In this document: positions 16,037 to 26,564 of the stretch, in pieces | How positions within the stretch are numbered: position 1 is the stretch's first letter | How the letters are laid out: the number at the start of each line of letters is the position of its first letter | Source: Candidatus Palauibacter poriticola | GTDB lineage: Bacteria; Gemmatimonadota; Gemmatimonadetes; Palauibacterales; Palauibacteraceae | Direction of reading: 5' to 3' | DNA: 64,000 nucleotides | NCBI GenBank assembly: GCA_012270965.1 | Contig: JAAXHJ010000066.1 | Coordinates: 29,183-93,182, forward strand | The notes under the pieces: generated by a model | The model's database searches: none | Seen by the model: only the letters and a program-made list of their open reading frames with translations | What the model was told of the DNA's origin: nothing | Program-made: the position numbers and the translations under genes

Positions 16037-16515
16037 AAGCCTCGCACCGCTGTGTTCGGGGGCGCGTTCCTCGCCCCTCGATGTTCAAGTCATCGCCCCG
16101 GTCGTCCCCCAAGGCACCGACCACCGAGCAGTCACAACCGACATCGATCGACCAAGCGGGTCGGACCGAGTAGTCGCGTCAGGCTCAATCTATCGCAGAA
16201 CCGTCAACCGTGTATCAATCGGAGGGGATCGAGGCTTTGACACGGGAACACGTTCCGACCGTTGTACGGCCCGGGGACCGTCCGCCTCACTCCGCGAGGG
16301 AACCTACGCCGAGGGGGACGCCCGGCCAACTAGTTAATTAGTAGAGCGTGCTCCCATGGCCCGTCGAGCGCAGGGCGAGCGCCGACGGAGGCAACGGGAC
16401 GGGGCGCGCGGAGCGAGAACCCGTCGGTCACCGTGCCGGAACGCGGCTGTGGACGGCTACGCGTTGGGCGCGAATTCGCGTCGAGCCGCACCACACCCAC
16501 GGTGTGCCGGTCAGA

Positions 16516-17682
16516 TCAGATCCAGTCCTTCTTGCGGAAGTCCGTCATGACTTCGGCGAGCTTCTCCATGTCGGACGGGAGGCCCATCGAGAGCCGGCTC
16601 CAGTCCGTCATCGGCGGGAACGGGCGGCCCACGTTGAACCCGGCCTCGTACATGCGCTCGTTGTAGGTCGCGAGTTCGCCCTTGATCCGGTGCATGATGA
16701 AGTTCGTGTGGCTCGGCAGCACCTCAATGTCGAGCTGGGCGAGGGCGTCGTGCATGACCGCCTTCGCCTCGTTGTTCGTCTTCACGCTCTGGGCGAAGAA
16801 GTCCTCGTCGGCGAGCGAGGCGATGGCGGCGACGCCCGCGACGTGATTGGGCGCGTTCCGCGTCGCGAAGGGGAGAACCCGCTGGACGGTGGCCTCGTGC
16901 GCGACTCCGTAGCCGAGACGAATCCCGGCCATCGCGTACACCTTGGAGAAGGTGCGGGCGACGATCAGGTTCGGGTGGCGCTCGATGAGCGGGATGAAGG
17001 TCTCGTAGCCGGGATCGTCCGCGAGTTCGAAGTACGCTTCGTCCACGAGGAAGAGGTGCTGCTCGCTCTCGTCGCGGATCCAGTCCGCGATGGGCCTGGT
17101 CGAGGTGAGCGTACCCGTCGGGTTGTTCGGGTTGCAGAAGTAGATCACGCTCGGCGCGGACGACTTGGCGACCTCCTCGCGCATGCGGTCGATGTCGTGT
17201 GCGTAGTCGCTCGTGAGCGGAACCGTGACATGATCGTACGCGAACGGCTGCGAGTACCGGGGGACGTCCTCGTACGTCGGCTCCGCGTAGATGAGGCGGC
17301 CGCCGGGCGCCGCCCAGGCCGCCGCGGCGATGCGCAGGATCTCGGTCGATCCGGAGCCGAAGAAGAGCTGGCCGGGCTTGACGCCGAGGCGCGCGACGAG
17401 CGCCTCGCGCACGAGTTCGCCGGTCGCGCCGGGATAGCGGTTCGCCTCGTCGAGTCCGTCGATGATCGCCTGCCGCGCCGACGGAGCGATGCCGAGCGGG
17501 TTCTCGTTCGAACTCAGCCGGACGGGTCCGTTGTAGTCGCGTCCCGGTCGGCGCGGGTTGAAGATGGTGTCGAGACCGCGCGCCGTCGTCGCGCCCGCCA
17601 GGGGTGCGGCAAGGGGTGCGGCGGCGATGCCGGCAACGCCGGCGCCCGTGAGTCCGGTTCGGAGAAACGCCCTTCGCTTCAT
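16516..17682 (-). CDS. class-II (HisC-like) PLP aminotransferase with a Tat signal peptide
   Basis: MKRRAFLRTGLTGAGVAGIAAAPLAAPLAGA (twin-arginine RRAFL); aminotransferase motifs SSNENPLG, FCNPNNPTG, ARTFSKVYAMAGIRLGY; GGGAGG SD 5 nt upstream. Confidence 0.85.
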   Translation of the reverse strand: MKRRAFLRTGLTGAGVAGIAAAPLAAPLAGATTARGLDTIFNPRRPGRDYNGPVRLSSNENPLGIAPSARQAIIDGLDEANRYPGATGELVREALVARLGVKPGQLFFGSGSTEILRIAAAAWAAPGGRLIYAEPTYEDVPRYSQPFAYDHVTVPLTSDYAHDIDRMREEVAKSSAPSVIYFCNPNNPTGTLTSTRPIADWIRDESEQHLFLVDEAYFELADDPGYETFIPLIERHPNLIVARTFSKVYAMAGIRLGYGVAHEATVQRVLPFATRNAPNHVAGVAAIASLADEDFFAQSVKTNNEAKAVMHDALAQLDIEVLPSHTNFIMHRIKGELATYNERMYEAGFNVGRPFPPMTDWSRLSMGLPSDMEKLAEVMTDFRKKDWI

Positions 17683-18079
17683 GTGGCCTCCCTGATGTTC
17701 CGAGGACGCCGCCGCCGCGGGGAGGCGGCGCGCGTCCGTCCCGCGCGTGCGGCTACGGACCTGTTGTAACGCGACCGTTGGAACATGGCCGTTGTCCCGG
17801 CGTTCGTCCAGCATGGCGGGTTCAGGCGGGATGCAGCGCCGCTCGAACGCAGCGGGGCCTTCGCCACGGGCTGCCGAGACACCCGTGTCCGGCGGGCCGC
17901 GCACCATCCACCCTACGCCATCCGCACCTGTACAGTTATGTTTTCTTCCGCGGGTGCCCCCGCCGGCCGTTGGTGGTGGGCGAGGACGGCCCCGATCGGC
18001 ATTGCGGATTCTTGCTTGCCGCCGTCGCACATCGGCGCGGCGGCTCTGTTCATGAAGACACTTGTGACGGATTGCGACT

Positions 18080-19867
18080 GTGACTGAATCGACGTTCACC
18101 TCCCTTGAACAGCTTGGTGCCTGGGAACTCGCCGCCAAGGGGCGGGCCCTGCACGTGACGGCGCAGATCGCCGCTGGCGCGGACGGACGCCCCGCGGTTG
18201 GCGAATGCCGCACGGCGGCCATCGACTGCATCGGGCGCCGCCTCGCCGGCGAGTTGCCGCGGAAGGCATCCCGGCACCGGTCCTTCCACTTCGACGACGG
18301 GCAGACGAATTGCCGGGTGGTTCGCCAGCGCAGCGGCCGCGGGGATTTTTGGGCGGCGCGCGTGGAGTCGCGCGCGGAACCCGACCGCGCCCTCGTGACC
18401 GAAATCGTCGTCGCGGCGCCCGGCGACGAGCGGGAGCCGACGGTCGGGGTCCGTGTCCCGGGCTGGCCGGCTTCGGCAGGCCAGGCGCAGGAGACCCTTC
18501 CTCCGGCCGTGCTGCGCCACATTGCCGGGGCGGCTCCCCTCCTTCAGGGTGGCGACGCCCTGGTCCTCGACCCCGCGGCGGTGTGGACTCCGCAGGAGAT
18601 GCACGAGTTCATCACCACGCTCGTCGATCCGGCGCGTTCGCTGCCGGTCGTCGTCATCACGGAACCGACTCTGGGGGGCGATGCGCGCGCCCTGCTGGAA
18701 CGGTCGGCGCGGGTGGCCCGCGCGCTGACCGGACTGGCCACCGTGACCGTGCTTCCACAACGGTTCACGTACACGCTGAGCGATACCGTCACGAAGACGC
18801 TCTCGGTGTACGACGGCGCCTGGCGGGTGTACCTGCCCGGCTTCAGCCCGCAGGCCCGGCGCTTCGACCATCCGGTGTACCTGCGCGACCGTGTGGAGAC
18901 GGCGGACGGCTTCGAGGCGACGACGCAGGAGGTCCTACGGATCGTCGGCGACCACCATGTGCGGACGACCGAGGGGGATCAACTCCGCTTCGATGCGGTT
19001 CTGCCTCGCAAAGACCGGCTCGCCGATGCCGCGCTCGGCCTCGCCGCGCCGTGGCGGCGCCTCCCGGCCGCCGTGTCGGCGGGCGCGGCCCGGCTGGCCG
19101 TGCGGCCGCGCCGGTGGATGGGACGGCGGCGCGCACACGGACCCGCGACCACGCCCGCCCCCGGTTCCGGCGCGGGGGTCTCGTCCGGCGGGACGGCCCC
19201 GGAAGTGCCCCAGCCCCCAGGCACGAAGACCAGGAAGACGGAGGCCGCGGCGCTGCGCAAAGAACTCTCCGGCGTGCGGCGCGACCTGCAGGCGGCGCGG
19301 AAAAAGAGCGAAACGCTGGCGGGCGAACGCGACCGCGCACGCGAGCTGGAGGCGGCCGCGCGAGAGGAGCGGCAGGGGGCGGAGCGGGAGGCGCGCCGGC
19401 TCGAGGGGCTGGTGCGGTTCCTGGGCGGCGACCCGCGGACGCCCTTCCCCGTCGCCTGGGACGAAATCCCCAAGTGGTGCGAATCGACGCTGGAGGGCCG
19501 CGTCGTGCTCGCGGAGCCGGTGCTAAGGGGTCTGCGGGGGACCCTGTTCGAGGATGTGGGGCTCGCCGCCATCTGTCTTCACTGGCTCGGCCACGAGTAC
19601 CGCGATGCCCGCCTGCACGGCGGCGACGGCCACCTTTACGGGCTCGTCCCCGGCCTGGCGGCCGGCATTCGCAACGAACGGTGCGGCGGGGACAGCTTCC
19701 AGTTCGACTGGCGCGGCGAGAAGCACCAGGTGGATTGGCACCTCAAGAACGGCGGAAACACCCGCGACCCCCGCCGCTGCCTGCGCGTCTACTACTTCTG
19801 GGACGCCAGCCGCCGGGAAGTCGTCGTCGCTTCGATGCCCTCCCACCGGCGGTCGGCCCTCACCTGA
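18080..19867 (+). CDS. uncharacterised 595-aa protein: N-terminal domain, G/P-rich linker, ~70-aa coiled coil, C-terminal domain
   Basis: Strong GC3 codon bias over its full length; GTG start after an in-frame TGA at 18065; coiled coil TKTRKTEAAALRKELSGVRRDLQAARKKSETLAGERDRARELEAAAREERQGAEREARRLEG; no known catalytic motif recognised. Confidence 0.6.
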   Translation: MTESTFTSLEQLGAWELAAKGRALHVTAQIAAGADGRPAVGECRTAAIDCIGRRLAGELPRKASRHRSFHFDDGQTNCRVVRQRSGRGDFWAARVESRAEPDRALVTEIVVAAPGDEREPTVGVRVPGWPASAGQAQETLPPAVLRHIAGAAPLLQGGDALVLDPAAVWTPQEMHEFITTLVDPARSLPVVVITEPTLGGDARALLERSARVARALTGLATVTVLPQRFTYTLSDTVTKTLSVYDGAWRVYLPGFSPQARRFDHPVYLRDRVETADGFEATTQEVLRIVGDHHVRTTEGDQLRFDAVLPRKDRLADAALGLAAPWRRLPAAVSAGAARLAVRPRRWMGRRRAHGPATTPAPGSGAGVSSGGTAPEVPQPPGTKTRKTEAAALRKELSGVRRDLQAARKKSETLAGERDRARELEAAAREERQGAEREARRLEGLVRFLGGDPRTPFPVAWDEIPKWCESTLEGRVVLAEPVLRGLRGTLFEDVGLAAICLHWLGHEYRDARLHGGDGHLYGLVPGLAAGIRNERCGGDSFQFDWRGEKHQVDWHLKNGGNTRDPRRCLRVYYFWDASRREVVVASMPSHRRSALT

Positions 19868-19928
19868 TCGCGCCGGGGTGCTCGCACGCCGCACGCCGGG
19901 CGTGGACATGCCGTTACGCAGCTGACCG

Positions 19929-20457
19929 GTGACCTTCGACGAACACGAGATCCGGCGGCGGCTGCGCCTGGGTGAAGACAGCCGCGTGGGATTCAAGGGG
20001 TTCGAGTTCCGCGGCAACCGTCCGATGCGCCCGGAGAGGAGGAGCATCGCCGACGAGCTGGCGGCGTTCGCCAACGCCCGCGGTGGCGTGATGTCCTGCG
20101 GCGTCACTGACTCCGGTCGGGTCCCCGGGATGACGCGCGGCGAGATGGGTGCGCTTGAGGAACTCGTCGTCAACCTCTGTACCGACGCGGTAAGGCCGTC
20201 CATCGAGGTAACCACGTGTCGTGCCGAGGCCGACGGCAGGACGCTTCTTCTCGTCGAAGTTCCGCCCGGCTACGCGCTGCACGAAAGCCCCGGGGGGGGT
20301 CGTTCCGCCGCATTGGCAGTTCCAAGCGCCGGATGACCAGCGACGAGAGCCTGCGTCTCGGGTCACCGACGGCGGCGCCGCCGAACGGCTCATCCGGATC
20401 GTGAGCATCGTCGGCCAGTCCGCGCTCGTCGAATACCGAGTCGCCAGCGGGCCGTAG
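19929..20457 (+). pseudogene. AlbA_2 (Schlafen-like divergent AAA/DNA-binding) domain gene, frameshifted and truncated
   Basis: Frame 1 reads EDSRVGFKGFEF...LAAFANARGGVMSCGVTDSG...LLLVEVPPGYALHESPGG. The conserved continuation SFRRIGSSKRRMTSDESLRL is in frame +2 and VTDGGAAERLIRIVSI...VASGP in frame +1; the first shift is at the C4G8 homopolymer at 20289-20300. Confidence 0.6.
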
Positions 20458-21959: not shown

Positions 21960-24900
21960 TTAGCGGTCGTTCCCTCCGTCGGGCTCATCCCAGAACCCGA
22001 AGCCTTCCTTGCGCAGCACCTCCAGCGGGATCGTGTGTGTTTCGTCGCCGATCGTGATCGCCACGGTGTAGCTTCCCGGATCGGCCAAGCCGCCCCCGCC
22101 GCCCCCGCCGCCGAAGAAGCGGCGGATGGTCGACATGCCGCCCCGCTCGCGGACGGCCTCCCCCACCTGCTGGAAGACGGCGCGCATGGCCGCCGGGTCG
22201 GCACCGCCGGCCGCGCCGCCCGCCATCGCCACCGCGGCGCGCACTCCCCTTCCGCCGCCGCCCCGCGCCGCCTGCCGGCCGGGCTGCGGATAGCGCTCGG
22301 CGGGCCTCTCCTGCCAGCCGCCGGCGCCGCCGCCTCCACCGCCTCCGCCTCCGCCGAACATGCGAATGATCGCGCCCTGGTTACCGCCCTGCATCATCCC
22401 GAGCACCTGGTCCATCGTCTCCCGCGCCACCCCTTCGTGCTCGACGAGCGAGTCTCCCACCGCCTCGTAGAGCCGCGCGGTCCGCAGGCTGTCCAGCCGA
22501 TCCGCCGGCGACGGTTCCCGCGGCGCGCTCCGCCGGTTGAACGTCCACCGTACGCGCTGCACGCCCGCCGAGGCCGGACCGTTGAGCGTCTGCACGGTGT
22601 CGCCGGCCGCGTTCAGGATCGCGATCGAGGCCTGCGGGCGGTTTCCGCCCCGCGCGGCCGCCATACCCGCCGCCATCGCGAAGGCGGGAACCTCCGACGC
22701 GGCAGCCGGAGCCTCCTCCTCTCCGGCCTCCTCTTCGTCAGCCTGCTCCGCGGCCTCCTCGCCCTCGCCCTCCTCCTCGCCCTCTTCCTCGGCCTCTTCC
22801 TCGGCCTCTTCCTCGGCCGCCGCGGCCGCCTCCGCCTCCGCCTCGGCCACCTCAGCGAGCGCGTCCGCTACATCCTCCGGGATGTAGTAGGAGATCTCGG
22901 CCCCGTAGCGTCCCGCGTCCCCCTGGAAGGTGCTCTGCGCGATGAACTCGCCACCCACGGGCGAGTCCCCGAACTGGATCGCCGTCTTGGGCTGGAACAC
23001 CGTCACGGCCTCCGGCAGGCGTCCGCCATCGAGTTGCTGCAGGAGCGAGATGTCGGCCACGAAAATGGAGCGGCCGTGCGTGCCCGCGATGATCTCGCTC
23101 TCGCGCGGGTGGATCTTGAGATCGTGGACCGGCACCGTGGGCAGCCCGTTCATGAAGCGCGTCCACGATCCGCCCCGGTCCGTGGACACGTAGGCCCCCA
23201 CGTCCGTCCCCACGAAGAGGAGGTCCGGGCTCACCGGGTCTTCCCGGATCACGTGCACGAAGTCCGGCGCCCCGGTCGGAAGGTTCGACGAGATCGAGCG
23301 GAAGGTCTCCCCCGCGTCATCGGTCACGTAGACGTACGGCGTGTAGTCGTCGCGCCGGTGGTTGTCGAACGTCACGTAGAAGCGGCTCGGGTCGTGGCTC
23401 GAGGGCTCGATCCGGCTCACGTACGTCCCCTCCGGAACGCCGTCGAAGCGATCCGTGAGTTCGATCCACTCCGCCCCCTCCGGCGTCCGCCACACGCGGC
23501 CATCGTCCGTCCCCGCGTACAGTTCGCCCTCGTTGAGCTTCGACTCGGCGAGGGAGACGATCGTGGCGAAGTTCTCCGCGCCCGTGACGTCCGGCGTGAT
23601 GCCGCCCGTCGTGTTGTACGCGATTTCGATCTTCTCGGGGTCCGCGTAGGTGAGGTCGGCCGAGATCGGCGCCATCTCGTCCGTGTCGTACGTCCACTTC
23701 AGGACGCGGTTCGCCCCAATGTACAGCGTCTGCGGATCGTGGGGCGACAGTTCGAGCGGCGTATTCCAGTTGAACCGCATGTCGTAGAGGGCCGAGTCCC
23801 GCGCCACGAGGCCCTGCAGTTCCTCGATCTGCGCGACGTTGCCCGCCGGGGGATCGTCGGGGTCGTCCCCCGTCAGGATCGCGATCGAGTCGCGCAGCAC
23901 CTGCGTTTGTTCGCGCCAATCGGGATGCTGCAGCTGATGGCGCTCGCCCGTGCGCGTGTTCCGCCAGTAGATCCGCCCCTGCTGCGATTCCCCGAACACG
24001 ATGTCCGGGTTCGTGGGATCCTGCGGCGCGTAGAAGCCGTCGCCGCCCCCGATCGAATACCACATGTGATTGTCGATGGAGCCGCCGGCGCGGGCGCTCG
24101 GCCCGCACCAAGTATAGTTGTCCTGCAGTCCGCCGCACACGCGATAGGGCGTGTCCATGTTATAGCTGACCGCATAGAACTGTCCCATGGGAATGCGGTT
24201 GGGGAACTCGAAGTTGCCGCCGCGATCCCACGTGATCGCGATCCCGCCGTCGTTGCCCAATATGAAGTGATCCGGATCGGTAGGATCCCACCACAGTGCG
24301 TGATAGTCGACGTGTACGCCTTGGGCCGGGTTCCCGACCGTACGACCTCCGTCCCGGGAGAAGAAGAGGGAGGACCAGTAGATGAAGTCGGGATCGTCCG
24401 GCGACACCCAGACGCCGGAATAGTAGAAGGGCCGCGAGTTGTTCGAGTTCATGAACTCCCACGTCTCACCGCCGTCCGCGGAGCGGTACAGGCCGGAGGC
24501 GTGACGATCCCCGTTGTCATCCGCCTCCTCCGGAGCCTCCGCCTCGACCATCGCGTACATGACCTGCGGATAGCTCGGCGCGATCGCGATCTCGAGCCGT
24601 CCCAGCATGGTCTCGGGGAGGCCGTTGCCCTCCACCTTCTCCCATGTGTCGCCGGCGTCCGTGGACTTCCAGATCGCACTCCCCGGGCCGCCGCTCTGAA
24701 AGAAGTACGGACCGCGCACGCGCTCCCAACTCGTCGCCCACAGGATGTCCGGATTCCGTGGGTGCATGTCGATGTCGACGAAGCCCGCCTTGTCGGAGAC
24801 GAAGTTCACGCGCTCCCAAGTGTCGCCGCCGTCCCTCGTGCGGTAGAGTCCGCGCTCCTCGTTGTCGCCCCACGGGTGCCCGAGCGCGGCAACGTACACC

Positions 24901-25382
24901 CAATCGGCCTTCGTCGGGTGGACGACGATGCGGCCGATCGCCTGCGTGTCCTCGAGTCCCTTCAACTCCCACGTGAGCCCGCCGTCGACGGACTTGTAGA
25001 TGCCGCCGCCGGGCGAGATCGAGTTGCGGGAGTCCTCCTCGCCGGTCCCGGCCCACACGATGTCGGGGTTGCTCGGCGAGATCGCGAGGTCGCCCATCGA
25101 GATGACCCGCTCGTTGTCGAACACGGGCCGGAAGGTCGTTCCGTGGTTCGTCGTCTTCCAGATTCCGCTCGTGGCGCCGGCCACGAAGAAGGTTCCCGTC
25201 CCCGGGATCCCCTCGACGTCGGTGACGCGCCCGGCCATGTTCGCCGGGCCGATGGAACGCCACTCCATCTCGGCCATGAAGTCCTCATCGGCCACCGCCT
25301 CCCGGGCGGCCTCTTGGGCGGCCGCCGAGGCGGGGAGGATGACTGTCGCGAAGAAGACGGGAAGAAATGCACGCTTCAGCAT
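21960..25382 (-). CDS. secreted BNR/Asp-box repeat protein (sortilin/Vps10-like beta-propellers) with an acidic and Gly-rich C-terminal tail
   Basis: Signal MLKRAFLPVFFATVILPASAAAQEA; many SxDxGxTW Asp-box repeats (SVDGGLTWE, TRDGGDTWE, STDAGDTWE, SADGGETWE, STDRGGSWT); AGGAG SD; tail with 50-aa poly-E/A and G9-G10 runs. Confidence 0.85.
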   Translation of the reverse strand: MLKRAFLPVFFATVILPASAAAQEAAREAVADEDFMAEMEWRSIGPANMAGRVTDVEGIPGTGTFFVAGATSGIWKTTNHGTTFRPVFDNERVISMGDLAISPSNPDIVWAGTGEEDSRNSISPGGGIYKSVDGGLTWELKGLEDTQAIGRIVVHPTKADWVYVAALGHPWGDNEERGLYRTRDGGDTWERVNFVSDKAGFVDIDMHPRNPDILWATSWERVRGPYFFQSGGPGSAIWKSTDAGDTWEKVEGNGLPETMLGRLEIAIAPSYPQVMYAMVEAEAPEEADDNGDRHASGLYRSADGGETWEFMNSNNSRPFYYSGVWVSPDDPDFIYWSSLFFSRDGGRTVGNPAQGVHVDYHALWWDPTDPDHFILGNDGGIAITWDRGGNFEFPNRIPMGQFYAVSYNMDTPYRVCGGLQDNYTWCGPSARAGGSIDNHMWYSIGGGDGFYAPQDPTNPDIVFGESQQGRIYWRNTRTGERHQLQHPDWREQTQVLRDSIAILTGDDPDDPPAGNVAQIEELQGLVARDSALYDMRFNWNTPLELSPHDPQTLYIGANRVLKWTYDTDEMAPISADLTYADPEKIEIAYNTTGGITPDVTGAENFATIVSLAESKLNEGELYAGTDDGRVWRTPEGAEWIELTDRFDGVPEGTYVSRIEPSSHDPSRFYVTFDNHRRDDYTPYVYVTDDAGETFRSISSNLPTGAPDFVHVIREDPVSPDLLFVGTDVGAYVSTDRGGSWTRFMNGLPTVPVHDLKIHPRESEIIAGTHGRSIFVADISLLQQLDGGRLPEAVTVFQPKTAIQFGDSPVGGEFIAQSTFQGDAGRYGAEISYYIPEDVADALAEVAEAEAEAAAAAEEEAEEEAEEEGEEEGEGEEAAEQADEEEAGEEEAPAAASEVPAFAMAAGMAAARGGNRPQASIAILNAAGDTVQTLNGPASAGVQRVRWTFNRRSAPREPSPADRLDSLRTARLYEAVGDSLVEHEGVARETMDQVLGMMQGGNQGAIIRMFGGGGGGGGGGAGGWQERPAERYPQPGRQAARGGGGRGVRAAVAMAGGAAGGADPAAMRAVFQQVGEAVRERGGMSTIRRFFGGGGGGGGLADPGSYTVAITIGDETHTIPLEVLRKEGFGFWDEPDGGNDR

Positions 25383-25525
25383 GATTCGCGGCTCCTGACC
25401 GTGGTGGTGCTCGTGGCCCTCTCCGCCAACGCTCGTTGACGGGTTCCCGGGACGCAATGCTGCTTCGTGGGCGCACGGGAGTAGACACCCGCGCGTGACC
25501 CGGCGTTTGAGGACTCGAAGGCTCT

Positions 25526-26488
25526 TCAGCTTCCGGGCGGAGGATCGTCGCCCTTCAGGGCGCGGATGCGCCGCACCACGCGGTCGCGCCATGCACACAG
25601 CGCCTCGGTGGCGGATGCTCCGTACGTCTCCTCCATCTCCTCGTGGATGCCGTCGATCACGCGGCCCGAGAACTCGGGGTCCGCTTCAAGCTCCCGCCAC
25701 ATTGCCCGGTACGCGTCGCCGTAGCGCCGGTAGTACTCCCCCGCGCCCCCGTCCGCGTTCGTGTGTCCGGTGCCGAACGGTCCGAGCAGCGCCCACCGCA
25801 GCCCCATCCCGTCCCGGACCACCGTGTCGATCGCCTCCGCGGAGGCCGCGCCCGATCCGTACAGGAAGACGGCCTCCCGGATCAACGCGGCTTGGAGCCG
25901 GTTGAGGAGGAAACCGGCCAGGTAGCGGTTCATCCGCACCGGAGACTGGCCCACGCTCTCGAGAAAGGCGAGCGCGGCAGTCAGTACGCCGGGGTGCGTG
26001 CCCTCCCCGGGAAGGACCTCCACGACCGGGATGACGTGCGGCGGATTCACGGGGTGCGCGACGACGCAACGGCCGGCGCCCGCGAGACCGTCCGCGATCC
26101 GCGACATGTCGTGCGCGGATGTCGAACTGGCCAGAACCGCGCCGGGATCCGCCGCCGCGTCCAGTTCGGCGAAGATCCGCTGCTTGATCGCGAGCGTCTC
26201 CGGCCCGCTCTCCTGCACCCATCCCGCGCCCGGCAGCGCCTCCTCCAGCGTGTCGCAGCGGCGAATCCCCCGCCCTTCCCGGGTGGCGCCCTCGGCATCG
26301 ATGAACCCGAGGGCCTCGTCTTCGTCCGCGGACCCCCGCGCCCAATCGAGCGCGCGCGCCAGCTGCTCCGGGTCGGGGTCGAAGACGCGCGTCTCGCAAC
26401 CGGCCCTCGCGAACACGCGGATCCAACTCCGCCCGATGACTCCCGCCCCGACGACGGCGGCGGTTCGAATCGCGGGCTGGCGGGGCAT
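25526..26488 (-). CDS. 3-hydroxyacyl-CoA dehydrogenase family protein
   Basis: MPRQPAIRTAAVVGAGVIGRSW Rossmann start; the overall 3HCDH N/C layout. Confidence 0.85.
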   Translation of the reverse strand: MPRQPAIRTAAVVGAGVIGRSWIRVFARAGCETRVFDPDPEQLARALDWARGSADEDEALGFIDAEGATREGRGIRRCDTLEEALPGAGWVQESGPETLAIKQRIFAELDAAADPGAVLASSTSAHDMSRIADGLAGAGRCVVAHPVNPPHVIPVVEVLPGEGTHPGVLTAALAFLESVGQSPVRMNRYLAGFLLNRLQAALIREAVFLYGSGAASAEAIDTVVRDGMGLRWALLGPFGTGHTNADGGAGEYYRRYGDAYRAMWRELEADPEFSGRVIDGIHEEMEETYGASATEALCAWRDRVVRRIRALKGDDPPPGS

Positions 26489-26564
26489 GGCCACCGGTCC
26501 CTTGCAACCTGGATGCTGCCGGGTCACGGGCCTGCTTCGTCGGGGAAGCGGGGCCGAAGGGTCA

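What the first reader, a model, noticed from the sequence alone, without database searches (positions are those of the whole stretch)
18080..20457. Uncharacterised 595-aa coiled-coil protein next to a decayed Schlafen-like (AlbA_2) gene: possible defence-locus remnant
ORF 18080-19867 has strong GC3 bias and ordinary composition throughout, so it is a real gene, but I cannot place it in any family. Its layout is a ~290-aa N-terminal domain, a G/P/A-rich linker, a ~70-residue charged coiled coil, and a ~170-aa C-terminal domain. The C-terminal domain holds R-x4-H (RDARLH) and D..E-K type motifs (GDSFQFDWRGEKH), which might indicate a HEPN- or PD-(D/E)xK-like nuclease. It starts with GTG behind a short lower-GC leader carrying three TGTGAC/GTGAC repeats. 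Immediately downstream is an AlbA_2-type domain gene, a Schlafen-like domain that recurs in antiviral or abortive-infection contexts. The pair sits between a periplasmic aminotransferase gene and a TPR sensor gene, which fits an accessory insertion. It may be a new two-gene defence or DNA-sensing module in which the Schlafen-like partner has been inactivated.
Basis: partly seen in the sequence, partly recalled or inferred. Interest (0 to 1): 0.7.

Follow-up and report, generated by a model that had tools for sequence, protein, structure and literature searches.

The report
HEC-07 phage-defence gene, decayed Schlafen-like neighbour
The "unplaceable" 595-residue protein belongs to HEC-07, a single-gene bacterial anti-phage family already catalogued and tested in E. 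coli, and the broken Schlafen-like gene beside it is a co-resident that recently decayed, not a required partner.

Summary
The ORF 18080-19867 (+) is real: GC1/2/3 is 0.76/0.56/0.87, and dN/dS against four orthologues is 0.28-0.38. The protein is not unplaceable. Pfam and NCBIfam find nothing, but PADLOC-DB matches its HEC-07 models at E = 9e-106. HEC-07 is a single-gene "Hma-embedded candidate" that reduced phage plaquing in E. coli (Payne et al., bioRxiv 2024). Its authors describe an AdoMetDC-like domain, a thioredoxin-like domain lacking CxxC, and a RelE-like RNase domain with a conserved C-terminal His.

The downstream AlbA_2 gene is a pseudogene, with frameshifts at a G8 tract and a 1.2-kb internal deletion. 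Sister genomes carry it intact, but upstream of the HEC-07 gene. Five other syntenic genomes lack it, and it appears in at most 1 of 118 neighbour gene clusters. The two-gene-module idea is therefore not supported. This is a divergent Gemmatimonadota member of a known kind.

The parts
18080..19867 (+). HEC-07 family gene (595 aa, GTG start, stop at 19865-19867)
   Evidence: It matches PADLOC HEC-07 model PDLC04161 at E = 8.9e-106 (353 bits) and three further HEC-07 models. The ORF and its GC3 signature are confirmed. dN/dS is 0.28-0.38 against four orthologues.
17887..18079 (+). Upstream leader that travels with the gene
   Evidence: The blastn block shared with L001 starts about 190-210 nt upstream of the start codon in both genomes (window 17887 = L001 7793). 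It is partly conserved with L004 and L005. No sigma-70-like promoter was found. Of the TGTGAC copies at 18063 and 18079, only the one overlapping the start codon is conserved.
18080..18484 (+). N-terminal alpha/beta domain (aa 1-135); called AdoMetDC-like by Payne et al.
   Evidence: The model has a helix at 37-54 packed on strands 69-127, with pLDDT above 90. W91 and E108 are near-invariant. The AdoMetDC-like fold itself did not appear in my fold-search lists.
18227..18229 (+). Codon 50: Cys where 95% of relatives have Trp
   Evidence: Column conservation is W 0.95. All close homologues have W, and only the window has C.
18485..18979 (+). Thioredoxin-fold domain without CxxC (aa ~136-300)
18980..19228 (+). 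Helical segment followed by a disordered P/G/A/R-rich linker (aa 301-383; disordered 345-383)
   Evidence: pLDDT is 41-49 over residues 345-383. Alignment occupancy is 0.1-0.3 for residues ~325-380, so this is a lineage-specific insertion. dN/dS is highest here, at 0.37-0.81. Other family members have 150-300-aa P/A-rich insertions at the same site.
19229..19420 (+). Long charged helix, probably a coiled coil (aa 384-447)
   Evidence: The model shows a single helix over 384-447. The only PDB sequence matches are coiled-coil proteins. PADLOC gives weak hits to the coiled-coil region of LmuB.
19433..19864 (+). C-terminal effector-type domain (aa 452-595); RelE/YafQ-like according to Payne et al.
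   Evidence: This is the most conserved part of the protein (dN 0.14-0.16 in all four comparisons, the lowest of any domain against L002, L004 and L005). W466, Y571, P587 and H589 are invariant, and H554, K556, R569 and D575 are at least 90% conserved. The topology is strand-helix-helix followed by five or six strands. No sequence or profile match to YafQ/RelE was found.
19929..20449 (+). Pseudogene remnant of an AlbA_2 + HATPase_c_4 (Schlafen-like) gene
   Evidence: Pfam SLFN_AlbA_2 matches at E = 1.8e-12. tblastn with the intact L001 protein finds aa 1-124, 122-143 and 531-578 in three different frames. The remnant is 88% identical in DNA to L001 6030-6458 and 87% to L001 7673-7763.
20286..20301 (+). 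Frameshift site in the AlbA_2 remnant (G8 tract)
   Evidence: Two single-base insertions relative to L001 lie on either side of the G8 run.
20355..20364 (+). Junction of the 1214-bp internal deletion in the AlbA_2 remnant
   Evidence: L001 6459-7672 has no counterpart in the window. A short CTGCG microhomology lies at both breakpoints.

Best explanation
The 595-aa ORF encodes a divergent Gemmatimonadota member of the HEC-07 family. HEC-07 is a single-polypeptide candidate anti-phage system catalogued in PADLOC-DB. One homologue has been shown to reduce phage plaquing in E. coli.

**What is shown here**
- The protein belongs to the family.
- It has a Cys-free thioredoxin-fold middle domain.
- It has a lineage-specific disordered linker and a long helix.
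- Its C-terminal alpha/beta domain is strongly conserved and carries invariant or near-invariant His, Lys, Arg, Tyr and Asp residues.
- The gene is under purifying selection.
- The gene sits in a fixed chromosomal slot that also collects other defence-type genes.

**What is inferred**
- The two N-terminal domains act as the sensing or autoinhibitory part.
- The long helix mediates oligomerisation.
- Infection releases the C-terminal RelE/YafQ-like endoribonuclease. H589 would be the equivalent of the catalytic C-terminal His of YafQ-type toxins.
- The nuclease then cuts mRNA and stops translation, so phage production is aborted.

**The AlbA_2 neighbour**
- The adjacent AlbA_2/HATPase_c_4 gene was a separate co-resident of the same small variable island.
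- It was already present in the common ancestor of this lineage and the L001 lineage.
- It was inactivated recently in this lineage. The HEC-07 gene does not need it.
For: **Family membership**
- PADLOC matches four HEC-07 models. The best is E = 8.9e-106 at 353 bits.
- Relatives match the same model end to end.
- An exhaustive HMMER search finds 2,530 clusters of relatives, typically 530-560 aa long.

**Published description**
- HEC-07 is a one-gene system and is among the seven that reduced plaquing.
- It is described as AdoMetDC-like, then thioredoxin-like without CxxC, then RelE-like with a conserved His at position 543.

**Structure**
- The model has mean pLDDT 86.5.
- There is no Cys in residues 136-300.

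**Conserved residues**
- H589 is invariant. H554, K556, R569 and D575 are at least 90% conserved, and Y571 is invariant.

**Selection**
- dN/dS is 0.28-0.38. The C-terminal domain is the most constrained against three of the four orthologues.

**Independence from AlbA_2**
- Five syntenic loci lack it.
- It occurs in at most 1 of 118 neighbour gene clusters.

**Defence context elsewhere**
- L006 has a Type IIG/ISP restriction enzyme in the same slot.
- L003 has a PDC-M26A gene and a DUF2357/PDDEXK_7 gene nearby.
- In non-Gemmatimonadota loci, Type I R-M subunit-sized genes flank the gene in L065, L066 and L074, and neighbour clusters include Type I methylases, GajA/AriA-like ATPases and integrases.

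**History of AlbA_2**
- dS for its first 120 codons is 0.345 with dN/dS 0.21. This dS is the same as that of the HEC-07 gene against L001, which is 0.344.
Against: - I could not confirm the RelE-like fold, which is the key to the mechanism. All three fold searches of the full-length model were filled by thioredoxin hits.
- Sequence and profile comparisons with YafQ and with PDB sequences were negative. Only the topology and the residue pattern agree.
- Anti-phage activity was shown for one distant homologue in E. coli, not for this protein. No mechanism has been published.
- In Gemmatimonadota the gene lies in conserved, mostly housekeeping neighbourhoods. That is unusual for a mobile defence gene.
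- This copy has Cys in place of a 95%-conserved Trp at position 50, which could impair it.
Confidence: 0.8

Rival explanations
1. This is a two-gene defence or DNA-sensing module in which the AlbA_2/HATPase_c_4 protein is the functional partner of the 595-aa protein. On this reading the module is crippled here because the partner has decayed.
For: - The two genes are adjacent in two sister lineages: the window, and L001/L089/L090/L091.
- Both were present in the common ancestor, since their dS values are equal at about 0.34.
- They stayed adjacent even though their order changed.
- The AlbA_2 domain gives domain-level matches to pAgo-associated PADLOC models.
Against: - Five other syntenic genomes keep an intact HEC-07 gene under purifying selection without any AlbA_2 gene.
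- AlbA_2 is found in at most 1 of 118 neighbour clusters across about 75 loci.
- HEC-07 was cloned and tested as a single gene.
- The HEC-07 gene is still intact here after its neighbour decayed.
Confidence: 0.07
2. In Gemmatimonadota the gene has been domesticated. On this reading it is a vertically inherited chromosomal protein, for example a stress-responsive RNase or translation regulator, and its main role is not antiviral.
For: - It holds the same slot in at least 10 Palauibacter-type genomes.
- A second conserved neighbourhood is shared by about 23 Longimicrobiales loci. By sequence inspection and one Pfam hit it contains peptidase, transporter-like, acetyltransferase-like, binding-protein and TonB-receptor-like genes.
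- GC content matches the surroundings.
Against: - dN is 3-10 times that of the flanking genes, and dN/dS is about 3 times higher.
- Against L002, dS is 3-4 times that of the flanks, which suggests allele replacement.
- The slot collects other defence genes (L006).
- Several genomes carry two copies.
- Outside the phylum the gene has restriction-modification and other defence genes as neighbours.
Confidence: 0.1
3. The C-terminal domain is a HEPN or PD-(D/E)xK nuclease, as the RDARLH and GDSF..D..EK motifs suggested.
For: The motifs are present in this sequence.
Against: - H513, E547, K548 and H549 each fall below 70% conservation in 108 relatives. Other residues are invariant instead.
- The predicted domain is strand-helix-helix followed by a five- or six-stranded sheet. 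That is not the all-helical HEPN fold.
- Pfam and PDB sequence searches of the domain find no nuclease family.
Confidence: 0.03

Closest known systems
HEC-07 (Hma-embedded candidate 07; PADLOC-DB models PDLC04158-04161; Payne, Hughes, Fineran & Jackson, bioRxiv 10.1101/2024.01.29.577857)
   Same: - The protein matches the family models across its length.
- It has the thioredoxin-like middle domain without CxxC, and matches the same PDB entry, 3VFI, that the authors used.
- It has the conserved His near the C-terminus.
- It shows a single-gene organisation in most genomes.
   Different: - It is about 40-60 residues longer than typical members, because of a disordered P/G/A-rich insertion before the long helix. 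That insertion splits the HMM match into two stretches.
- It is only 20-30% identical to most non-Gemmatimonadota members.
- It is not embedded in an Hma system. It sits in a conserved chromosomal slot.
- It carries a W50C substitution.
- Its activity has not been tested.
RelE/YafQ-type type II toxins (E. coli YafQ, H. pylori HP0892/HP0894; PDB 4ML2, 2OTR, 4LTT)
   Same: - Payne et al. report a structural match of the HEC-07 C-terminal domain to 4LTT.
- Here the predicted topology is strand-helix-helix followed by a sheet.
- An invariant His lies a few residues after the last strand. YafQ has an invariant H87 about five residues from its C-terminus. That H87 is the catalytic residue is taken from the literature, not tested here.
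   Different: - No sequence or profile similarity was found: hhalign probability is 0.3%.
- The domain is about 145 aa against about 90 aa for the toxins.
- It is fused to about 450 aa of other domains, and no antitoxin gene is present.
- Whether such a large protein could act in the ribosomal A site as RelE does is unknown.
AlbA_2 + HATPase_c_4 proteins (Pfam PF04326 + PF13749; Schlafen-like N-terminal domain)
   Same: The remnant at 19929-20449 is orthologous to the intact 580-aa protein of L001, L089 and L091, which has both domains.
   Different: - Here the gene is frameshifted and lacks about 390 internal codons, including the whole HATPase_c_4 region.
- The family is not itself a recognised defence system in PADLOC. 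Only domain-level hits to pAgo-associated models were found.

Membership tests
HEC-07 (PADLOC) | Significant match to the family's profile HMMs over the whole protein | tested here: met
   PDLC04161 matches at E = 8.9e-106 (353 bits) in two stretches, the best being residues 389-593 against profile positions 335-551 of 553. PDLC04159, 04160 and 04158 also match. Aligned relatives match profile positions 10-553 in a single stretch.
HEC-07 (PADLOC) | Thioredoxin-like second domain lacking the CxxC active site | tested here: met
HEC-07 (PADLOC) | N-terminal AdoMetDC-like domain | tested here: inconclusive
   A confident alpha/beta domain is predicted for residues 1-135. No AdoMetDC or spermine synthase match appeared in the lists returned, which were filled by thioredoxins.
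HEC-07 (PADLOC) | C-terminal RelE-like domain with a conserved His (H543 in the tested homologue) | tested here: inconclusive
   The His is met: H589 is invariant in 108 sequences. The RelE fold is not confirmed. The topology is compatible, but the fold lists were saturated and sequence and profile tests were negative.
HEC-07 (PADLOC) | Functions as a single gene | tested here: met
   This was tested by comparative genomics only. No neighbour is conserved across the family. Five syntenic loci have the gene without AlbA_2.
HEC-07 (PADLOC) | Reduces phage plaquing | not testable with these tools
   This has been shown only for one homologue in E. coli, by Payne et al..
HEPN nucleases | Conserved Rx4-6H motif in an all-helical domain | tested here: not met
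   R508 is 72% conserved, and H513 is below 70%. The domain contains five or six strands.
PD-(D/E)xK nucleases | Conserved D...(D/E)xK catalytic motif | tested here: not met
   D538 is 85% conserved, but E547 and K548 are each below 70%. Pfam finds no nuclease family.
RelE/ParE superfamily (YafQ family, PF15738) | Detectable sequence or profile similarity to family members | tested here: not met
   hhalign of the C-terminal profile against YafQ gives probability 0.1%, and against a 23-sequence YafQ profile gives 0.3%. hmmsearch of PDB sequences finds no toxin.
   The genes are adjacent in only two sister lineages, and in opposite order. AlbA_2 is absent from L002, L004, L005, L006 and L011. 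It is present in at most 1 of 118 neighbour clusters.
AlbA_2/HATPase_c_4 (Schlafen-like) gene | Intact reading frame containing both domains | tested here: not met
   The AlbA_2 domain is present. The gene is frameshifted, and the HATPase_c_4 region is deleted.

The most novel reading that the evidence does not exclude
In the Palauibacter lineage, HEC-07 and the AlbA_2/HATPase_c_4 gene might form a facultative functional pair. For example, the Schlafen-like, DNA-binding protein could tune or trigger the HEC-07 effector. This would explain why the two genes stayed adjacent through a change of order. The alternative novel reading is that Gemmatimonadota have fixed HEC-07 as a core chromosomal RNase whose role goes beyond phage defence.
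Probability: 0.1. Interest if true: 0.55.

Novelty: new member of a known kind. Interest (0 to 1): 0.25.

Why it matters
- It shows that a protein invisible to Pfam and NCBIfam can be placed at once with defence-specific profiles. That removes this locus from the list of unknowns.
- It extends HEC-07, a mechanistically unstudied anti-phage family, into Gemmatimonadota. There it is unusually stable in chromosomal position, and many related species carry it.
- The alignment and model point to testable catalytic candidates: H554, K556, R569, Y571, D575 and H589. They also identify a tolerated linker insertion site.
- None of this is surprising to a specialist in phage defence.

Tried and rejected
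- **Pfam and NCBIfam.** Searches on the whole protein, on three fragments, and on 20 relatives gave nothing meaningful.
- **First structure model.** The AlphaFold run on an 8-sequence alignment was too poor to use (pLDDT 47.6). It was replaced by a run on 108 sequences.
- **PDB sequence searches.** The full-length profile found only coiled coils. The C-terminal profile found nothing relevant.
- **hhalign against YafQ.** Comparison with YafQ alone and with a YafQ-family profile gave no signal.
- **Repeats as a clue to the changed gene order.** I looked for flanking direct or inverted repeats that could explain the changed order of AlbA_2 and HEC-07. Only weak matches typical of GC-rich DNA turned up.
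- **Promoter and terminator scan.** It found nothing.
- **TGTGAC repeats.** They are neither over-represented nor conserved.
- **Locus scan with the 108-sequence alignment.** It was too diverse for the search for related loci. A 24-sequence alignment worked.
- **Gene caller.** My first two home-made versions confused sense and antisense frames in this GC-rich DNA. They were replaced before use.
Full report
**1. The observation**

The ORF at 18080-19867 (+) is present as described, with a GTG start and 595 codons.
- Its GC1/GC2/GC3 is 0.763/0.557/0.867. The same signature holds in each of its five segments, and the overlapping alternative ORFs lack it.
- Homologues begin with the same MTESTF N-terminus, and one (L004) has ATG at the same position, so the start codon is right.
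- Against four orthologues dN/dS is 0.28-0.38, so the gene is under purifying selection.

A model built on 108 sequences (mean pLDDT 86.5) shows five parts:
- an alpha/beta domain at about residues 1-135;
- a second alpha/beta domain at about residues 136-300;
- a helical segment running into a disordered P/G/A/R-rich stretch at 345-383;
- a single long helix at 384-447;
- an alpha/beta C-terminal domain at 452-595.

The upstream "TGTGAC repeats" are two exact copies, at 18063 and 18079. The second overlaps the start codon. The hexamer is not over-represented in the window (11 found, 16.9 expected). The upstream copy is not conserved in L001 or L004.

**2. What the protein is**

Pfam and NCBIfam find nothing. 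PADLOC-DB gives a strong match to its four HEC-07 models, the best at E = 8.9e-106 and 353 bits.

HEC-07 is one of nine "Hma-embedded candidates" of Payne, Hughes, Fineran and Jackson (bioRxiv 10.1101/2024.01.29.577857).
- It is a single-gene system.
[quoted passage not shown] - I found no later paper that names a mechanism.

An exhaustive HMMER search with a profile of the close homologues found 2,530 clusters of relatives at E <= 0.001 and 388 at E <= 1e-30. Most are 530-560 aa long. Diverse members match the PADLOC model end to end in one stretch. In the Gemmatimonadota clade the match is split in two by the inserted linker.

**3. Testing the published domain description**

Thioredoxin-like domain: confirmed.
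- Foldseek agrees.
- There is no cysteine in residues 136-300.

Conserved His: confirmed.
- H589 is invariant in 108 sequences, together with R186, W466, Y571 and P587.
- H554, K556, R569 and D575 are at least 90% conserved.

RelE-like and AdoMetDC-like folds: not confirmed.
- All three fold searches had to use the full-length model, and their lists were filled by thioredoxins.
- Sequence tests were negative. A C-terminal profile finds no toxin among PDB sequences.
- hhalign against E. coli YafQ gives probability 0.1%. YafQ is a relative of HP0892 and 4LTT. hhalign against a 23-sequence YafQ profile gives 0.3%.

What does agree with RelE/YafQ:
- The topology is a short strand (475-477), two helices (479-487, 493-512), and then five or six strands (530-585).
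- An invariant His lies four residues after the last strand. YafQ's invariant H87 likewise sits about five residues from the C-terminus of that 92-residue toxin. That H87 is its catalytic residue is established knowledge, not tested here.

The RNase mechanism therefore rests on the preprint's structural comparison plus this pattern. It is an inference.

**4.

- H513 of RDARLH, and E547, K548 and H549 of GDSFQFDWRGEKH, each fall below 70% conservation in the family.
- The domain is not all-helical.
- HEPN and PD-(D/E)xK are therefore not supported.
- The G/P/A-rich linker is a lineage-specific insertion. Alignment occupancy is 0.1-0.3 for residues ~325-380.
- The linker has the weakest constraint, with dN/dS of 0.37-0.81.
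- Other high-GC members carry 150-300-residue P/A-rich insertions at the same site.

**5. The AlbA_2 neighbour**

The ORF at 19929-20336 matches SLFN_AlbA_2 (E = 1.8e-12). The intact orthologue is a 580-aa AlbA_2 + HATPase_c_4 protein in L001.

Compared with it, the window copy keeps only part of the gene:
- aa 1-124 in one frame;
- aa 122-143 in a second frame, after two 1-nt insertions on either side of a G8 tract;
- about aa 531-578 in a third frame, after a 1214-bp deletion with a short CTGCG microhomology at the junction.

It is therefore a pseudogene remnant.

Its first 120 codons differ from L001 by dS = 0.345 with dN/dS = 0.21. The HEC-07 gene has the same dS, 0.344. Both genes were therefore in the common ancestor of the two lineages, and the inactivation is recent.

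**6. Is it a two-gene module?**

The HEC-07 gene lies in the same slot, between the aminotransferase (-) and the TPR-like 400-500-aa gene (-) followed by the ~1111-aa Sortilin/BNR gene (-). This holds in the window and in L001, L002, L004, L005, L006, L011, L089, L090 and L091.

Only the L001 lineage (L001, L089, L090, L091) has an intact AlbA_2 gene. There it is upstream of HEC-07, whereas the window's remnant is downstream. I found no flanking repeats that explain the changed order.

The other five genomes lack AlbA_2:
- L006 has a Type IIG/ISP restriction-modification enzyme there instead.
- L002 and L006 have a small 115-134-aa gene upstream.

To sample the wider family I scanned one genome per species. 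That scan found 240 relatives. The 80 best are mostly from Gemmatimonadota/Longimicrobiales, with some from Alphaproteobacteria, Acidobacteriota and others.
- I called genes in these loci with a codon-bias caller validated on L001 and L006.
- I clustered the neighbours.
- I scanned one representative of each of 118 of the 124 clusters found within two genes of the HEC-07 gene.
- SLFN_AlbA_2 occurs in at most one cluster, the L001 one.

Recurrent neighbour families include Type I methylases and specificity subunits, GajA/AriA/Old-type ATPases, mad2, HipA and integrases. In L065, L066 and L074 the gene lies between genes of Type I R-M subunit size (about 517, 450 and 1024 aa). That would match the "embedded" pattern of the preprint. 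I did not assign the family hits to individual loci.

In about 23 Longimicrobiales loci the gene lies in a conserved, ordinary-looking neighbourhood. The two-gene hypothesis is therefore not supported. The AlbA_2 gene is a co-resident of a small variable island anchored by HEC-07.

**7. Evolutionary behaviour**

- The gene's dN is 3-10 times that of its flanks, and its dN/dS is about three times higher: 0.28-0.38 against 0.11-0.16 for the aminotransferase and Sortilin-like genes.
- Against L002, dS is 0.96 against 0.2-0.35 for the flanks, which suggests allele replacement.
- Against L001, dS equals that of the flanks.
- GC content matches the surroundings.
- Overall this fits a long-resident, fast-evolving defence-type gene better than a recent insertion.

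**8. Caveats**

- This copy has Cys at position 50, where 95% of relatives, including all close homologues, have Trp. The effect is unknown.
- Anti-phage activity is inferred from one distant homologue.

**9. Verdict**

This is a divergent member of a known, catalogued candidate defence family, sitting next to a recently decayed Schlafen-like gene. Interest is low to moderate.

Noticed in passing
window 17887-20449 compared with L001 6029-9796: The HEC-07 gene and the AlbA_2 gene lie in opposite order in two sister lineages: AlbA_2 then HEC-07 in L001, L089 and L091, but HEC-07 then the AlbA_2 remnant in the window. Both genes are on the same strand, and their dS values are equal. No flanking repeats explain the rearrangement.
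   Followed up: partly
window 18227-18229 (codon 50): Cys replaces a Trp that is 95% conserved across 108 relatives and present in all close homologues. This could be a real, possibly damaging change or an assembly error.
   Followed up: partly
L006 4108-7446: A 1112-aa Type IIG/ISP restriction-modification enzyme (N6_Mtase + Type_ISP_C) sits immediately downstream of the HEC-07 orthologue, in the same slot where the window has the AlbA_2 remnant. The slot therefore behaves as a small defence hotspot.
   Followed up: yes
window 25526-26527 (-): A 333-aa ORF with an NAD-binding GxGxxG start, which by eye looks like a 3-hydroxyacyl-CoA dehydrogenase. It lies in about 1 kb that has no counterpart in L001 or L002. 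L004 and L005 have a Peptidase_S58 gene at that position.
   Followed up: no
window 16346-16518: The enoyl-CoA hydratase (ECH_1) gene lies between the RND efflux operon and the aminotransferase gene in L002, L004, L005 and L091. It has no blastn counterpart in the window, where only about 170 bp separate the flanking matches.
   Followed up: no
P0020, P0094, P0099 (relatives); same site as window residues ~325-380: Some family members carry 150-300-residue proline/alanine-rich low-complexity insertions between the thioredoxin-like part and the long helix. P0053 has an extra N-terminal extension of about 530 residues with no Pfam match.
   Followed up: partly
L003 12616-16574: About 3 kb downstream of the 39%-identical homologue lie two genes. 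One matches PADLOC candidate PDC-M26A and has a weak AAA_5 hit. The other is a DUF2357 + PDDEXK_7 gene. Together they resemble a McrBC-like pair.
   Followed up: partly
L017, L029, L033, L037 and similar Longimicrobiales loci, +2 to +4 genes from the HEC-07 homologue: A recurrent pair of genes of about 147-176 aa. By eye these look like an Xre/DUF2384-type antitoxin with a partner toxin. This was not checked against any library on a per-protein basis.
   Followed up: no
window 21960-25598 (-): The Sortilin/BNR-repeat protein has long acidic (E/A-rich) and poly-Gly low-complexity stretches near its C-terminus. The listed ORF is about 100 codons longer at its 5' end than the orthologues, so the true start is probably internal.
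   Followed up: no
Genome-contig scan: OZ220468.1 (L030, L085), SB0664_bin_10 (L029, L041), RHO1_bin_51 (L013, L039): Several Gemmatimonadota genomes carry two HEC-07 family copies at different loci.
   Followed up: no
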